Assembly: GCA_951406725.2 (NCBI GenBank)
Contig: OX597825.1
Location: forward strand, 70,308,001 to 70,372,000
DNA: 64,000 nucleotides
Source: Octopus vulgaris
Taxonomy: Eukaryota
Direction: 5' to 3'
In this document: positions 4,753-52,792 of the stretch, one piece after another
Layout of the letters: every line of letters starts with the position of its first letter
Numbering within the stretch: position 1 is the first letter of the stretch
Program-made: the position numbers and the translations under genes
The notes under the pieces: model-generated
The model's input: the letters and a program-made list of their open reading frames with translations, nothing else
What the model was told of the DNA's origin: nothing
Databases searched by the model: none

Positions 4753-4775
4753 TCATATATAAACGATTGAATATA

Positions 4776-5191
4776 TTTCTTTATTGCCGACAAGGGGCTA
4801 AACATAGAGTGGACAAACAAGGACAGACAAAGGGATTAAGTCGATTACATCGACCCCCAGTGCGTAATTGGTACTTTATTTATCGACCGCGAAAGGATGA
4901 AAGGCAAAGTCGACCTCGGCGGAATTTGAACTCAGAACGTAAAGACAGACGAAATACCTATTTCTTTACTACCCACAAGGGGCTAAACACAGAGAGGACA
5001 AACACGGACAGACAAACGGATTAAGTCGATTGCCTTGATCCCAGTGCGTAACTGGTACTTTATTTATCGACCCCGAAAGGATGAAAGGCAAAGTCGACCT
5101 CGGCGGAATTTGAACTCAGGACGTAACGACAGACGAAATACCGCTAAGCATTTCGCCCGGCGCGCTAACGTTTTTGCCAGCTCGCCGCCTT
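4776..5191 (-). mobile_element. SINE family B (tRNA-like head, Meta-domain-like core), duplicated core+tail
   Basis: Reverse complement of ggcggcgagctggca...gagttcaaattcc (B box)...gcctttcatcctttcggggtcgataaa; many copies in window. Confidence 0.85.
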
Positions 5192-27787: not shown

Positions 27788-30137
27788 TAAGCAATAAAGG
27801 GTTTGGCAACGAATTGCCTTACCACATACCGAATTTAGAAATAGCAGTCAAAGAGTTATAGCTATTTCTTCTACTAAAAAGGAGATCTCAGTAAAAACAG
27901 CAATTGGAAGGCAGACACAAACAGGTAAGAGGGAATGAATTGACGGCAATCTATCATACAATTTTAAGTTATCTACGGACGTACGTTTCGAAATCAAGTT
28001 CTTAGGAAAGCATAAGAATTAAATATTAAATAATTCTATCTTACCAAGAACTTCTTTTCTCTTCAGCGTAGAATACTATAATCATAAATGATTATATATT
28101 GAATTTTGAGATACTAGAAGGCATCAACTCAACTCAGTATCAGAGCGAGCTAGAATCCGCAACTAGTATCACCAAATTCAATGTGTGAATGAAGAGATTG
28201 TGTCACCAGCCCCTTCCCACCCGCGTGTAGCCAAAACAAGATGCTGTGGTCATCTACTGAGATAAAATATGGTTATCCGTCATAATGAAGGGTGAAATTA
28301 ATTAATTTGGAATAATTATCAATAACACCAAGTAGTCTTCGGCATGTAAAAGCCTCATTCGAGGAAAATTTAAGTAATACTAAGCAATAAAGGGTTTGGC
28401 AACGAATTGCCTTACCACATACCGAATTTAGAAATAGCAGTCAAAGAGTTATAGCTATTTCTTCTACTAAAAAGGGAGATCTCAGTAAAAACAGCAATTG
28501 GAAGGCAGACACAAACAGGTAAGAGGGAATGAATTGACGGCAATCTATCATACAATTTTAAGTTATCTACGGACGTACGTTTCGAAATCAAGTTCTTAGG
28601 AAAGCATAAGAATTAAATATTAAATAATTCTATCTTACCAAGAACTTCTTTTCTCTTCAGCGTAGAATACTATAATCATAAATGATTATATATTGAATTT
28701 TGAGATACTAGAAGGCATCAACTCAACTCAGTATCAGAGCGAGCTAGAATCCGCAACTAGTATCAGAAGAAATAGCTATAACTCTTTGACTGCTATTTCT
28801 AAATTCGGTATGTGGTAAGGCAATTCGTTGCCAAACCCTTTATTGCTTAGTATTACTTAAATTTTCCTCGAATGAGGCTTTTACATGCCGAAGACTACTT
28901 GGTGTTATTGATAATTATTCCAAATTAATTAATTTCACCCTTCATTATTACGGATAACCATATTTTATCTCAGTAGATGACCACAGCATCTTGTTTTGGC
29001 TACACGCGGGTGGGAAGGGGCTGGTGACACAATCTCTTCATTCACACATTGAATTTGGTGATACTAGTTGCGGATTCTAGCTCGCTCTGATACTGAGTTG
29101 AGTTGATGCCTTCTAGTATCTCAAAATTCAATATATAATCATTTATGATTATAGTATTCTACGCTGAAGAGAAAAGAAGTTCTTGGTAAGATAGAATTAT
29201 TTAATATTTAATTCTTATGCTTTCCTAAGAACTTGATTTCGAAACGTACGTCCGTAGATAACTTAAAATTGTATGATAGATTGCCGTCAATTCATTCCCT
29301 CTTACCTGTTTGTGTCTGCCTTCCAATTGCTGTTTTTACTGAGATCTCCTTTTTAGTAGAAGAAATAGCTATAACTCTTTGACTGCTATTTCTAAATTCG
29401 GTATGTGGTAAGGCAATTCGTTGCCAAACCCTTTATTGCTTAGTATTACTTAAATTTTCCTCGAATGAGGCTTTTACATGCCGAAGACTACTTGGTGTTA
29501 TTGATAATTATTCCAAATTAATTAATTTCACCCTTCATTATGACGGATAACCATATTTTATCTCAGTAGATGACCACAGCATCTTGTTTTGGCTACACGC
29601 GGGTGGAAGGGGCTGGTGACACAATCTCTTCATTCACACATTGAATTTGGTGATACTAGTTGCGGATTCTAGCTCGCTCTGATACTGAGTTGAGTTGATG
29701 CCTTCTAGTATCTCAAAATTCAATATATAATCATTTATGATTATAGTATTCTACGCTGAAGAGAAAAGAAGTTCTTGGTAAGATAGAATTATTTAATATT
29801 TAATTCTTATGCTTTCCTAAGAACTTGATTTCGAAACGTACGTCCGTAGATAACTTAAAATTGTATGATAGATTGCCGTCAATTCATTCCCTCTTACCTG
29901 TTTGTGTCTGCCTTCCAATTGCTGTTTTTACTGAGATCTCCCTTTTTAGTAGAAGAAATAGCTATAACTCTTTGACTGCTATTTCTAAATTCGGTATGTG
30001 GTAAGGCAATTCGTTGCCAAACCCTTTATTGCTTAGTATTACTTAAATTTTCCTCGAATGAGGCTTTTACATGCCGAAGACTACTTGGTGTTATTGATAA
30101 TAATTCCAAATTAATTAATTTCACCCTTCATTATTAC

Positions 30138-30138
<1 letters not shown>
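27788..30138. mobile_element. Tandem + inverted array of a ~593-bp hammerhead-bearing non-coding unit (retrozyme / non-autonomous PLE)
   Basis: Period 593 (27791 to 28384; 28765, 29358, 29951); orientation flips at ~28765; (TA)n on both sides; no ORF >=60 aa. Confidence 0.9.
29158..29258 (+). ncRNA. Type I hammerhead (copies 29750-29850 +, 27972-28072 -, 28566-28666 -)
   Basis: tctacg-CTGAAGA-gaaa.aagttctt...aagaactt.tttc-GAAA-cgtacg-TC-cgtaga; intact core, 6-bp stem I, palindromic stem III, GUC site. Confidence 0.88.
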
Positions 30139-30192
<54 letters not shown>

Positions 30193-31803: not shown

Positions 31804-32164
31804 CATACATATTTAATAAATAAAACGTGTCAGAAAGAAGCACACTCTGAAGAATAGAGCAGTAATTGCATCCACAAACCCAACACCTTGTGGACAGTTC
31901 GTCAGACTATATAAGACAAAATATTCAAAATTTGGCTTTGCGGATGCGAAACCTTGCTTTACTCTATGCTCAAGATATGAAATTTTGTTGTATATAGCGT
32001 AGGAGGGGGGACGGATGAAGAGAGAAAGAAAGAAAGAAAGAAGGGGAATAAGGGAGGAGGAGAGAGAGAGAGAAAAGAGACAGATCAAGAGTCGTACCAA
32101 TGTTAGAGAAAATATACTTACGTATAAGGACAAAAGTGTGGATACGGAGCCGCCATTATATATG

Positions 32165-32362
32165 TAAAAAGTAAAAAATATATACAAACTGAGACAAGAA
32201 CGTGAAACACCTAGAAGACGACACAAGAACCACAGGACGGGACATTCGAAGCCCTCATTCATCAGTCAAGAACCGGATCATCTTCGCAATTTCGGCTGAT
32301 TAATCTTGAGATTGCTCCGACCTGGGCAGCCCCCAATGGAAATCTAAGCCAAGCGCATTAGA
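32165..32362 (-). mobile_element. Short (TA)n-associated element with a hammerhead-like motif in reversed strand order; second copy ~48865-49155
   Basis: Two diverged copies share tcagtcaagaaccggatcatc.tcgcaatttcggctgattaatcttgagat. Confidence 0.65.
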
Positions 32363-32481
32363 TATATATATATATATATATATTCATAAATATACACACA
32401 TATACATATACATATATATGTGTTTGTCCCTTTCTCTCTATATATATATATCTATATATGAATGTGTATATCTACGTATGT

Positions 32482-35646: not shown

Positions 35647-36411
35647 ATGTGTATGTCATGGCATTTCTTTTTCTGTTTTTATATACCTCTGTATCTCGAG
35701 GGTGGATTCTTATTGCGTAAGTTTAGACCACACCAAGAAGAATTTGTCACACGCGAACTGCAAAACCACAGGATGCTATCTCCTGGTGTCGTACATCTTG
35801 TATCTATCTTCCGACCTCACACACACACACACACACACATATACATACATATATATATATACATACATATACACATACACACACACACACACATATATAC
35901 ATATATATAGATAGATAGGTTTAAGAGACAGAATCACCCTCAAGCAACTCAATCATCATTGAATGACATTATCCACAATAGGTACATAGGACTAAATATT
36001 AAAATTATCAAAATATACATACGCACACACACACACACATATACATACATGCATGCATAATACATATACATATACATACATTATATTTACTGATGTGCGT
36101 ACCGTGTGTTTATGCTTGTATGTACATCTGTCTCTGCGCGTGTTGTCACTTGATGACTTATCAAAAATTAGGTTAAAAACATATAGGAGTTCCTTATATA
36201 TATATATAGTATTATAATCCCTTACAAAACCCTTTTTCCAAATGTCAAGCCCCCAAAATTAGGGGGTTCCTTATACACGACGGTTCTTTATACACATTAA
36301 AATACAGTAGTTGGTGATAATGGAATGATTTCATGCTCTCATGACGCGAATTGCCTCTAAGGTCTTCGGCACTCGGCCGTGCTTTTCTTTGTTTTATATT
36401 GACGTAAAGAT

Positions 36412-36830
36412 ACCTATTTCTTTACTACCCACAAGGGGCTAACTACAGAGATGACAAACAAGGACAGACAAACGGATTAAGTCGATTACATCGACCCCAG
36501 TGCGTAACTGGTACTTAATTTATCGACCCCGAAAGGATGAAAGGCAAAGTCGACCTCGGCGGAATTTGAACTCAGAATGTAGCGGTAGACGAAATACTTA
36601 TTTCTTTATTACCCACAAGGGGCTAAACACAGAGGGAACAAACAAGGACAGACATAGGTATTAAGTCGATTACATCGACCCCAGTTCGTAACTGGTACTT
36701 AATTTATCGACCCCGAAAGGATGAAAGGCAAAGTCGACCTCGGCGGAATTTGAACTCACAACGTAACACAGACGAAATACTGCTAAGCGTTTCGTCCGGC
36801 GTGTTAACGTTTCTGCCAACTCGCCGCCTT
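36412..36830 (-). mobile_element. SINE family B, duplicated core+tail
   Basis: Matches family consensus. Confidence 0.85.
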
Positions 36831-41017: not shown

Positions 41018-41705
41018 AAGGAAGACAGCGAGCTGGCAAATTTGTTAACATGTCGGGTGAAATGCTTAGAAACGTTAGCACGCCGGGCGAAATGCTTATT
41101 AGTATTTCGTCTGCCGTAAGGCGGCGAGCTGGCAGAAACGTTAGCACGTCGGACGAATTGCGTAGCCGTATTTCGTCTGCCGTTACGTTCTGAGTTCGAA
41201 TTCCGCCGAGGTCGACTTTGCCTTTCATCCTTTCGGGGTCGATAAATTAAGCACCAGTTACGCACTGGTGTCGATGTAATCGACTTAATACCTATGTCTG
41301 TCCTTGTTTGTCCCCTCTATGTTTAGCCCCTTGTAGGTAACAAAGAAATAGGTATTTCGTCTGCCTCTACGTTCTGAGTTCAAATTCCGCCGAGGTCGAC
41401 TTTGCCTTTCATTCCTTCGGGGTCGATTAAATAAGCACCAGTTACACACTGGGGTCGAAATAATCGACTTAGTCCGTCTGTCTGCCCTTGTTTGTCTCCT
41501 CTGTGTTTAGTCCCTTGTGGGTAGTAAAGAAATAGGTATTTCGGCCATCTTTACGTTCTGAGTTTTAATTCCGCTGAGGTCAAATTTACCTTTAAACCCT
41601 TTCGGGACTTAATAAAATAAGTACCAGTTGAACACTGGGGTCAATTTAATCGACTTAGCCCCTGCTCCAAACCTGCTGGCCTTGTACCAAAAATTTGAAC
41701 CCAGT
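41018..41705 (+). mobile_element. Nested/tandem SINE B cluster
   Basis: Repeated heads and three cores. Confidence 0.8.
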
Positions 41706-42663: not shown

Positions 42664-43753
42664 AGGTGCAGGAGTGGCTGTGTGAAGGGGATTAATACCT
42701 ATTTCTTTTTCTTTATTGCCCACAAGGGGCTAAACACAGAGAGGACAAACAAGGACAGACATAGGTATTAAGTCGATTACATCGACCCCAGTGCGTAACT
42801 GGTACTTAATTCATCGACCCCGAAAGGATGAAAGGCAACGTTGACCTCGGCGGAATTTGAACTCCGAACGTAACGGCAGACGAAATACCTATTTCTTTAC
42901 TACCCACAAGGGGCTAAACACAGAGAGGACAAACAAGGACAGACATAGGTATTAAGTCGATTACATCGACCCCAGTGCGTAACTGGTACTTAATTTATCG
43001 ACCCCGAAAGGATGAAAGGCAAAGTCGACCTCGGCGGAATTTGAACTCACAACGTAGCAGAGGATTAATACCTCATTCAGTATTTTTTGTAAAAAAAAGA
43101 ACAATGTTTTAGAGAAGCAAAAGTCGGCAGGCGCTTTTCGTCTTCTCTCATCCTCATAAACAACAAGACTCCGCCGGTTACGACGACGAGGGTCCCAGCT
43201 GGTACGATCAACGGAACAGCTTGCTCGTGAAATTAACGTGCAAATGGCTGAGCATTCCACAGACACGTGTACCCTTAACGTAGTTCTCGGGGATAATCAG
43301 CGTGACACAGAGAGTGACAAGGCTGACCCTTTGAAATACAAGTACAACTCATTTTTGCCAGCTGAGTGGACTGGAGCAACGTGAAATAAAGTGTCTTGCT
43401 CAAGGACACAACGCGTCGCCGGGAATCGAACTCACAACCTTACGATCATGAGTCGAATGCCCTAACCACTAAGCCACGCGCCCTCACTCTCATCCTCATA
43501 ATCCTTGTATCATTATCATTCACCTCATTAATGTCCGTGTCCAGCCCGCAAGCTACCTTACTCTATGTACTGCCTTTATGGCAAATTTGATAAAATAAGA
43601 GTAGATTGCTTACGAACCACATGGTTCTGGGTTCAGTCCCACTGCGCGGCACCTTGGGCAAGTGTTTTTTTACTATAGCCTCGGACCGACCAAAACCTTG
43701 TGAGTGGATTTGGTAGACGGAAACTGAAAGAGGCCCGTCGTATATATGTATAA

Positions 43754-48778: not shown

Positions 48779-48865
<87 letters not shown>

Positions 48866-49281
48866 AAAAAATATATATAAAAATACAAAATGGGTCAAGA
48901 ACGCAAAACACTCAAACAGACGACACAAAAAACGGACGGGTCATTCAAAGCCTCTAATCTTCAGTCAAGAACCGGATCATCCTCGCAATTTCGGCTGATT
49001 AATCTTGAGATCACTCCGATCCGGCCAGCCCCAAGGAAAAACTAAGCATTAGATTTCTTGGAAAAAGGATCAAATGTATACGAAACAAGGACAGAAAAAC
49101 GGACGATGCCTCACGAATATAAATACAAAAAACAATAATAGTAATAACAGGACACGACGGGCTTCATTCAGTTTCCGTCTACCAAATTCAATCTCAAGGA
49201 TTTGGTCGACCCGAGGCTATAGTAGAAGACACTTGACCAAGGTGCCGGGACTGAACCCGGAACCAGAGTAAGCACAGCCAG

Positions 49282-52384: not shown

Positions 52385-52792
52385 ATTTCTTTATTGCCCA
52401 CAGGTGGCTAAACATAGAGGGAACAAACAAGGAAAGACAAAGGGATTAAGTCGATTACATCGACCCCAGTGCGTAACTGGTACTTATTTAATCGACACCG
52501 AAAGGATGAAAGGCAAAGTCGACCTCGGCGGATTTTGAACTCAGAACATAACAGCAGACGAAATACCTATTTCTCTACTACCCACAAGGGGCTAAACACA
52601 GAGAGGACAAACAAGGACAGACAAACGGATAAAGTCGATTACATCAACCCCAGTGTGTAACTGGTATTTAATTTATCGACCCCGAAAAGATGAAAGGCAG
52701 AGTCGACCTCGGCGGAATTTGAACTCAGAACGTAGCGGCAGACGAAATACGGCTACGCATTTCGCCGGGCGTGCTAACGATTCTGCCAGCTC
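52385..52792 (-). mobile_element. SINE family B dimer
   Basis: Matches family consensus. Confidence 0.85.

What the first reader, a model, noticed from the sequence alone, without database searches (positions are those of the whole stretch)
32250..32315. Hammerhead parts in reversed order (C-B-A): candidate new topology
Seen on minus: gcaa-TC-tcaaga-ttaatc-agcc-GAAA-ttgc-(14 nt)-tcttga-CTGATGA-atgag-ggct. Stem III (attgc/gcaat), stem I (tcttga/tcaaga) and stem II (ggct/agcc) can all form. The second copy (48949-49014) keeps them, with gcaat>gtgat tolerated as G-U pairs and a change at the free N7 (CTGAAGA). Established: types I/II/III are circular permutations of strand order A-B-C, and C-B-A is not one of them. 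Inference: either a pseudoknotted hammerhead whose 6-nt linker bridges the ends of stems I and II, or one that assembles only across tandem copies. Caveats: a 5-nt insert between A9 and stem II is atypical, and a competing helix ccggatc/gatccgg exists.
Basis: partly seen in the sequence, partly recalled or inferred. Interest (0 to 1): 0.75.

Follow-up and report, generated by a model that had tools for sequence, protein, structure and literature searches.

The report
Split-core knotted hammerhead in Naiad-type retroelements
This is a truncated copy of a very abundant jumping repeat whose RNA carries all the catalytic letters of a self-cutting hammerhead in a scrambled, knotted order, with the core likely opened at a spot assumed unbreakable, and the same pattern ends several Naiad jumping genes reported to lack such an RNA; cutting is predicted, not tested.

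Summary
The motif is real (minus strand, both copies). The order C-B-A is not new: it is type SGC, validated by Eckert et al. 2023 in metatranscriptomes. It pairs fully in 78 of 80 copies of three subfamilies and 0 of 85 of four others. An upstream strand pairs and covaries in all seven. The 'competing' helix is conserved and is the stem I-II interaction helix, joined to stem III by a kink-turn signature. So the core is split between A9 and G10.1, with two extra helices in the gap, a form I did not find in print. It sits in a ~760-800-nt non-coding, (TA)n-targeting Penelope-like repeat (roughly 10^4 copies), behind Naiad reverse-transcriptase remnants in this genome, and (read by eye) in 8 of 52 published Naiad 3' ends, from ctenophore to octopus. 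Cleavage is untested and no RNA-end data were available. Nested folding does not favour the fold. The 32.3-kb copy lacks one inserted helix; the 49-kb copy is complete. This scan reported the same reading earlier on other DNA.

The parts
31996..32363 (-). 5'-truncated copy of repeat subfamily A (monomer about 777 nt), flanked by (TA)n; it reads through the element's TA tract into the start of the next monomer
   Evidence: 95-98% identity to the tandem copy in L015; structure of the family
32333..32362 (-). Remnant of inserted hairpin P1: the distal stem-loop is kept; the 5' arm of the lower stem and the whole 5' strand of helix P0 are replaced by (TA)n
32327..32331 (-). Stem II 5' strand (G10.1 at 32331), lying upstream of the cleavage block
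   Evidence: covariation and per-copy counts
32319..32325 (-).
   Evidence: 78-80% of cells paired, double changes at 2 of 5 and 4 of 5 pairs
32310..32318 (-). Kink-turn non-bulged GA (32317-32316), stem III 5' strand (32315-32312), U16.1 and C17; predicted cut 3' of C32310
   Evidence: cut site by analogy with hammerheads
32304..32309 (-). Stem I 3' strand
   Evidence: 97.6-98.3% paired, double changes at 4 of 6 pairs
32286..32298 (-). Block G: stem II 3' strand (32298-32294), GAAA (32293-32290), stem III 3' strand (32289-32286)
32273..32285 (-). Kink-turn 3-nt bulge plus GA (32285-32281) and 3' strand of the interaction helix (32279-32273)
   Evidence: NNN-GA present in 163 of 165 copies
32259..32271 (-). 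Stem I 5' strand (32271-32266) and CUGAUGA core (32265-32259)
32242..32256 (-).
   Evidence: 15-bp helix in complete A copies, flank-folding z -3.7 to -5.1
32149..32170 (-). TA tract where most copies end (about 146 nt 3' of the cut site) and the next monomer begins
32115..32123 (-). Splice-donor-like GUAAGU near the monomer start, present in subfamilies A, B, D and G
   Evidence: function inferred from the PLE 5'-UTR intron described in Craig 2021
48856..49154 (-). 5'-truncated copy of subfamily B with all six helices: P0 5' strand 49062-49076, P1 49031-49061 (7-nt loop deletion), stem II 5' strand 49025-49030, interaction strand 49018-49024, C17 49009, core 48958-48964, P0 3' strand 48942-48957
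   Evidence: the only copy in the window that passes the strict descriptor

Best explanation
This is a 5'-truncated copy of a non-coding Penelope-like repeat whose RNA likely folds into a self-cleaving hammerhead with SGC-like strand order and a core predicted to be split between A9 and G10.1. The strands run 5' to 3': P0, hairpin P1, stem II, interaction helix, kink-turn, stem III, UH (cut), stem I, stem II', GAAA, stem III', kink-turn bulge, interaction helix', stem I', CUGANGA, P0'. The interaction helix and stem III form a kinked hairpin whose loop pairs with the 5' flank (stem II) and with the 3' flank (stem I). P0 and P1 would close the gap between A9 and G10.1 as a four-way junction, so the G12-A9 pair could still stack on stem II. 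In a read-through transcript of tandem units, cleavage would release unit-length RNA whose ends stay held by four helices, which would favour circularisation. A PLE reverse transcriptase acting in trans would prime at (TA)n about 110-180 nt downstream of the cut and copy round the unit, giving the fixed 3' ends, 5' truncations and partial tandems. SHOWN: motif, repeat anatomy, covariation, link of the same fold to Naiad RT. INFERRED: 3D junction, kink-turn, cleavage, circularisation, identity of the mobilising enzyme.
For: Core: 12 of 12 fixed hammerhead positions are invariant across one copy of each of six subfamilies, against 12 of 40 stem and 3 of 17 other columns; N7 takes U, A and G (Fisher p 2e-6, but rows are related). 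Four core helices: 93.2% of cells paired, 14 of 20 pairs with double changes, 0 of 500 shuffles as high, slid controls 17-47% (similar). Upstream stem II pairs in all seven subfamilies. Kink-turn GA in 154 of 165 and NNN-GA in 163 of 165 copies. P1 ends within a few nt of G10.1 in most A, B, C, E and G copies folded, and P0 forms in A, B, D and E. A sequence-unrelated family F has the same wiring (238 exact pattern hits, 0 control) and follows Naiad-type RT on the same strand in 12 of 30 RT loci. By eye, the same wiring with different stems ends 8 of 52 published Naiad consensus tails: one ctenophore, one hydrozoan, three Acropora, one cubozoan, two Octopus. Acropora shows a perfect P0/P1 junction. 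Craig 2021 noted unexplained 'HHR_core/half_core' motifs. SGC connectivity with the same interaction helix cleaves in vitro. PLE-like anatomy: periods 758-795 nt, fixed 3' ends at (TA)n.
Against: No cleavage data. No natural or engineered hammerhead with helices between A9 and G10.1 turned up in my searches, and Eckert 2023 assume block C cannot be interrupted. Nested folding does not give this structure: z -1.8, +0.5 and +1.5, and the 32.3-kb copy is predicted to bury CUGAU in a rod; the program cannot model pseudoknots or kink-turns. The interaction helix is only 78-80% paired and has a mismatch in subfamily A. P0/P1 folding is weak in B and F (z about -0.4 to -1.5, one at +0.1) and P0 was not recovered in most C and G copies. 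The copies were chosen by similarity or by an anchor, so intactness counts are biased upward. The cross-phylum matches were read by eye, not computed. No autonomous element with an A-E/G-type tail was found; the Naiad RT copies seen are broken, while the young intact PLE here is a C-terminal-endonuclease type with no similarity to the monomers. In another PLE, the hammerhead needed protein, was dispensable for insertion in vitro, and showed no RNA-seq ends at the cut.
Confidence: 0.74

Rival explanations
1. Plain type-SGC hammerhead: stem II is formed by the strand 5 nt downstream of CUGANGA.
For: That strand pairs 4/4 in 78 of 80 A, B and E copies. It is the only downstream helix open to the 32.3-kb copy, which has lost the P0 partner. 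SGC-1 carries a 1-nt insert at this place.
Against: 0 of 85 in C, D, F and G; 73-81% paired, no better than shuffles (79 of 500). The strand has its own partner in P0. Eckert's descriptor, strict or relaxed to a 0-2-nt insert, matches 0 of 165 copies. It could still be an alternative fold in A, B and E.
Confidence: 0.07
2. A conserved RNA structure with a hammerhead-derived core that does not cleave alone: a binding or priming platform for the PLE reverse transcriptase, or a ribozyme that works only with protein.
For: The core is interrupted; nested energies are poor; a kink-turn is a protein-binding module (recalled); the Anolis PLE hammerhead is protein-assisted and dispensable in vitro.
Against: Every catalytic position, the free N7 and the UH site are kept across unrelated stem sequences and phyla. 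Other Naiad lineages hold other ribozyme-like motifs at the same place (by eye), as expected for a slot that needs self-cleavage.
Confidence: 0.14
3. A conventional hammerhead that assembles only from two or three tandem copies, or from separate molecules.
For: Partial tandems exist, and minimal PLE hammerheads are described as acting as dimers (title in the reference list; paper not held).
Against: Units are 758-795 nt apart. All partner strands lie within about 150 nt, and the extra helices tie them together inside one unit. Stem III is not palindromic.
Confidence: 0.04
4. Chance arrangement amplified by transposition.
For: Copies within one subfamily are not independent, so abundance alone proves nothing.
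Against: Compensatory changes between seven subfamilies, a sequence-unrelated family with the same wiring, matches in other phyla, and empty controls.
Confidence: 0.01

Closest known systems
Type-SGC hammerhead ribozymes (HRIMA-1 and variants; Eckert et al. 2023, PMC10085705; read main-text parts 1 and 3-6 of 8, supplement parts 1 and 8 of 42)
   Same: Order of the cleavage block, GAAA block and CUGANGA; short linker from stem I to stem II; a helix joining the strand before stem I' to the strand after the stem II 5' strand; full core.
   Different: The stem II 5' strand is detached from A9 and lies upstream, with helices P0 and P1 in the gap; a kink-turn signature joins the interaction helix to stem III; found in animal genomic retroelements, whereas SGC was reported only from metatranscriptomes; cleavage untested.
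Naiad Penelope-like elements and their 'HHR_core / HHR_half_core' motifs (Craig et al. 2021, PMC8557442; read passages, metadata table, last 300-430 nt of 52 of 54 consensus sequences)
   Same: (TA)n targeting, 5' truncation, partial tandems, fixed 3' end; the same split fold ends Naiad_Obim, Naiad_Ovul and six cnidarian or ctenophore Naiads.
   Different: The window's element has no ORF and no detected sequence similarity to the Naiad tail; the paper reports no canonical hammerhead and did not describe the fold.
Non-LTR retrozymes and PLE pLTR type I hammerheads (bioRxiv 10.64898/2026.07.22.740005, read part 1 of 5 and passages; Frangieh 2024, PMC11167929, passages)
   Same: Non-coding tandem units with one hammerhead each, proposed to be non-autonomous PLE derivatives.
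   Different: Those carry type I or minimal type I hammerheads with circular strand order; this one is non-circular and split.
Kink-turn motif, box C/D-like (definition recalled, from no call)
   Same: Canonical stem, 3-nt bulge, tandem G-A/A-G pairs, then U-G or U-U at the 3b-3n position.
   Different: Embedded in a ribozyme scaffold; absent from the coral, hydrozoan and ctenophore versions, which use a bulge or an extra hairpin at this place; protein binding untested.

Membership tests
Hammerhead ribozyme | Core C3 U4 G5 A6 N7 G8 A9, G12 A13 A14 A15, U16 H17 (definition in Perreault 2011) | tested here: met
   CUGANGA 155, GAAA 156 and UH 161 of 165 copies; invariant across six subfamilies
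Hammerhead ribozyme | Stems I, II and III adjacent to the core, with covariation | tested here: met
   using the upstream stem II strand
Hammerhead ribozyme | A9 directly followed (0-2 nt) by N10.1 | tested here: not met
   0 of 150 A-E/G copies and 2 of 15 F copies pair 4/4 with a 0-2-nt insert
Hammerhead ribozyme | Site-specific self-cleavage 3' of H17 | not testable with these tools
   needs in vitro assay or raw RNA reads; only contigs were offered
Rfam hammerhead families (types I-III) | Match to a covariance model | tested here: not met
   no match at gathering score in 7 representative loci; none among the 150 of 200 rows shown for the window
Type-SGC hammerhead | Order S, G, CUGANGA | tested here: met
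Type-SGC hammerhead | Stem I-II interaction helix | tested here: met
   78-80% paired with double changes; weakest of the four helices
Type-SGC hammerhead | Uninterrupted block C (published descriptor) | tested here: not met
   my re-implementation of the descriptor shown matched 0 of 165 copies, strict or relaxed
Penelope-like element, non-autonomous | 5' truncation, partial tandems, fixed 3' end, microsatellite target, no ORF | tested here: met
Naiad clade | N-terminal GIY-YIG, CxC and C-terminal RT in the element or in its mobilising partner | tested here: inconclusive
   family F follows RT remnants matching the published Naiad_Ovul type, but no autonomous partner with an A-E/G tail was found in 50 loci examined
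Kink-turn | 3-nt bulge plus tandem GA/AG next to a canonical stem (recalled definition) | tested here: met
   154 and 163 of 165 copies for the two GA dinucleotides; 3 of 4 columns invariant in the six rows; the bend itself is untested

The most novel reading that the evidence does not exclude
A fourth break point in the hammerhead: an active ribozyme whose 'unbreakable' CUGANGA-stem II block is opened between A9 and G10.1 and rejoined by a four-way junction, braced by a kink-turn, conserved in Naiad retroelements from ctenophores to octopus and in about 10^4 non-autonomous copies here. Naiads would then be the first genomic reservoir of non-circularly permuted hammerheads (split-SGC here, type CSG in nematode Naiads), and the reported absence of hammerheads from the clade would be a search artefact.
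Probability: 0.68. Interest if true: 0.85.

Novelty: new variant of a known kind. Interest (0 to 1): 0.72.

Why it matters
It would extend the hammerhead permutation space beyond the six orders that assume three unbreakable blocks. It would put non-circular hammerheads, so far known from unassigned metatranscriptome or metagenome contigs and one doubtful bacterial case, into animal genomes. It would explain the 'half-core' motifs and apparent lack of ribozymes in Naiads, and it makes the open question of what PLE ribozymes do testable in a clade thought to do without them. The claim is cheap to test with 150-nt transcripts.

Tried and rejected
Rfam: only microsatellite-driven miRNA/snoRNA noise in the window and nothing in 7 loci. 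Sequencing runs: no RNA holder listed on record; all 24 runs are contigs. Laying 4 runs (four species labels were among the holders; A, B, C and D) showed the repeat at high depth but cannot show ends or strand, so there is no evidence on expression, cleavage, splicing or circles. First descriptor was too strict for subfamily A (3 of 30, because of the mismatch in the interaction helix); the per-helix counts replace it, and one search had a one-base offset error for subfamily D that one search corrects. Nested MFE folding cannot represent the structure. Search for an autonomous partner: 30 RT-hit loci plus 20 wider stretches held F-type tails or none; two A-E-type copies in them were separate insertions; the young 753-aa PLE shows no similarity to monomers A, B or G. 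Literature searches without a description of the split fold: 'non-circular permutation'+hammerhead, hammerhead+ribozyme+octopus (24), Naiad+ribozyme (39), hammerhead+type-SGC (50), hammerhead+kink-turn+four-way junction+retrotranspos (76, 0 papers), hammerhead ribozyme+Penelope-like+permut since 2022 (77), hammerhead+'between A9 and' (80, listing only). The library lacks most subscription papers; supplements of bioRxiv preprints were not visible. The paper on dimeric PLE hammerheads was not held.

Full report
OBSERVATION. The window lies in a 2.8-Gb genome, G000. It is octopus-like, which I infer from the near-identity of one repeat family here to the published Naiad_Ovul tail. The motif is part of an abundant repeat: 2159 first-look candidates, of which 40 were scored at 97-100% identity. 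In 600 kb sampled at fixed intervals there were 5 profile hits, 3 of them full length, which gives about 14,000 full copies (95% range 2,900-41,000).

THE ORDER IS KNOWN. Eckert et al. 2023 (PMC10085705; parts 1 and 3-6 read) split the hammerhead into blocks C (CUGANGA), G (GAAA) and S (site). So 'new topology' fails as stated.

THE ELEMENT. Loci with two copies show a non-coding monomer of 758-795 nt in partial tandem, 5'-truncated at variable places and ending at a fixed distance from the cut site in (TA)n: about 146 nt in A, 129 in B, 113 in E. This is the anatomy of Penelope-like elements as described by Craig et al. 2021. These are the best-scoring or first-listed subsets of much larger hit lists, so they are biased towards intact copies.

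WHICH HELICES ARE REAL. Stem I and stem III covary. The strand before GAAA pairs instead with a strand upstream of block S: 4/4 in 136 of 165, at least 3/4 in 165 of 165 (a 2-nt shift was allowed), 96-98% paired with double changes at 3 of 5 pairs. Directly behind that strand lies the 'competing' helix, which covaries (78-80% paired) and joins the same two places as the SGC interaction helix. For the four core helices over 14 copies of seven lineages: 93.2% paired, 14 of 20 pairs with double changes, 0 of 500 shuffles as high, slid controls 17-47%. Relatedness inflates such scores, so the weight rests on the independent families. Twelve of 12 fixed core positions are invariant across six families against 15 of 57 other columns, and N7 is U, A or G.

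THE SPLIT CORE. The stem II 5' strand (G10.1) therefore does not follow A9. What follows A9 pairs with sequence about 50-60 nt upstream of G10.1 (helix P0), and between P0 and G10.1 lies a hairpin (P1) that ends at or within a few nt of G10.1. With the core held unpaired, the flanks fold this way strongly in A (z -3.7 to -5.1), moderately in C, D, E and G (z -1.0 to -3.2, with P0 not recovered in most C and G copies) and weakly in B and F. Eckert's descriptor matches 0 of 165 copies and Rfam none. Between stem III and the interaction helix both strands carry a kink-turn signature (154 and 163 of 165 copies). I took that lead from earlier notes of this scan; the upstream stem II and P0/P1 were in my notebook before that call.

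LINK TO NAIADS. Craig et al. state that Naiads target (TA)n, lack canonical hammerheads, and that some carry an unexplained core or half core. I read by eye the last 300-430 nt of 52 of their 54 Naiad consensus sequences. Eight show the same split wiring with different stem sequences: Bfor (ctenophore; stem I only about 2 bp), Chem-3, Amil, Aacu, Anas, Movir-2, Obim and Ovul. Esco shows a degenerate form. The rest show none in the stretch visible or other motifs. In Acropora, P0 starts right at A9 and P1 ends right at G10.1. The Obim/Ovul type is family F here (238 exact hits, 0 control); it lies downstream of RT remnants (RVT_1, E 1.3e-5, below the curated cut-off) on the same strand in 12 of 30 RT loci.

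MECHANISM (inferred). The interaction helix, kink and stem III form a bent hairpin whose loop pairs with both flanks; P0 and P1 stack on each other and leave the G12-C11.1 strand continuous, so the core geometry could be kept. Cleavage of tandem transcripts would give unit RNAs with ends held together, ready for ligation; priming at (TA)n downstream of the cut and copying round the unit would give the observed insertions. Which enzyme does this is open: the Naiad RT copies seen are broken, A, B and E are young (97-99% identity), and the young intact PLE found has RT plus a C-terminal GIY-YIG (753 aa) and no similarity to the monomers.

AGAINST. No cleavage or RNA-end data. Nested folding gives z -1.8, +0.5 and +1.5 and other folds. 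The Anolis PLE hammerhead needs protein and is dispensable in vitro.

VERDICT. Observation confirmed; interpretation partly supported. It works like a type-SGC hammerhead but fails the uninterrupted-block-C test, so it is a new variant, not a member. Seven literature searches found no description of it. This scan noted the same reading on other DNA; those notes are not independent support. Confidence 0.74, interest 0.72.

Noticed in passing
PMC8557442 File S5, 3' ends of Naiad-1,-2,-3_Nbra, Hcon, Hpol, Asuum: By eye, six nematode Naiads end in a clean type-CSG hammerhead (C block, S block, G block, plus a long interaction helix). Eckert 2023 had only two CSG sequences, from metagenomes.
   Followed up: partly
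PMC8557442 File S5, 3' ends of Mgal, Bpla, Mphi, Scon, Mmer: A shared motif that resembles a circularly permuted twister ribozyme by eye (comparison with the twister rows and recall); not tested.
   Followed up: no
PMC8557442 File S5, 3' ends of CGi, Sglo, Olur, Tgra, Pmar, Skow-1/2, Pfla-1/2: Another motif conserved between oysters and hemichordates at the same position; a candidate ribozyme of unassigned class.
   Followed up: no
PMC8557442 File S5, 3' ends of Ptep, Smim, Dst-1, Dst-2, Parc: Arthropod Naiads carry CUGANGA in yet another arrangement that I did not resolve; Parc has an HDV-like looking tail (recall).
   Followed up: no
L276-L285 (e.g. L277:3294-5552 minus): Young PLE family with an open frame of 753 aa (RT plus C-terminal GIY-YIG), ending at (TA)n; its 3' UTR has a degenerate minimal hammerhead-like motif with a palindromic stem III by eye. 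Candidate mobiliser of the young non-autonomous families.
   Followed up: partly
monomer bodies, L015:1960-2140, L067, L052, L103, L232: Short blocks conserved between families at about 44% mean identity: a CACGTGAC E-box-like site and two small hairpins with GNRA-like loops; possible internal promoter and RT-recognition signals.
   Followed up: partly
window 27788-30149: Nested near-perfect inverted repeats (arms up to 678 nt, 99-100% complementary); a recent foldback rearrangement or an assembly artefact.
   Followed up: no
window 4774-5142, 36410-36781, 41168-41658, 42708-43056, 52385-52750: A 184-bp unit present as dimers or trimers at five dispersed places; another tandem-unit mobile repeat.
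   Followed up: no
L043, L076, L054, L071: Inverted, 5'-truncated copies next to each other, as described for PLE insertions; different subfamilies often insert side by side in one (TA)n tract.
   Followed up: no
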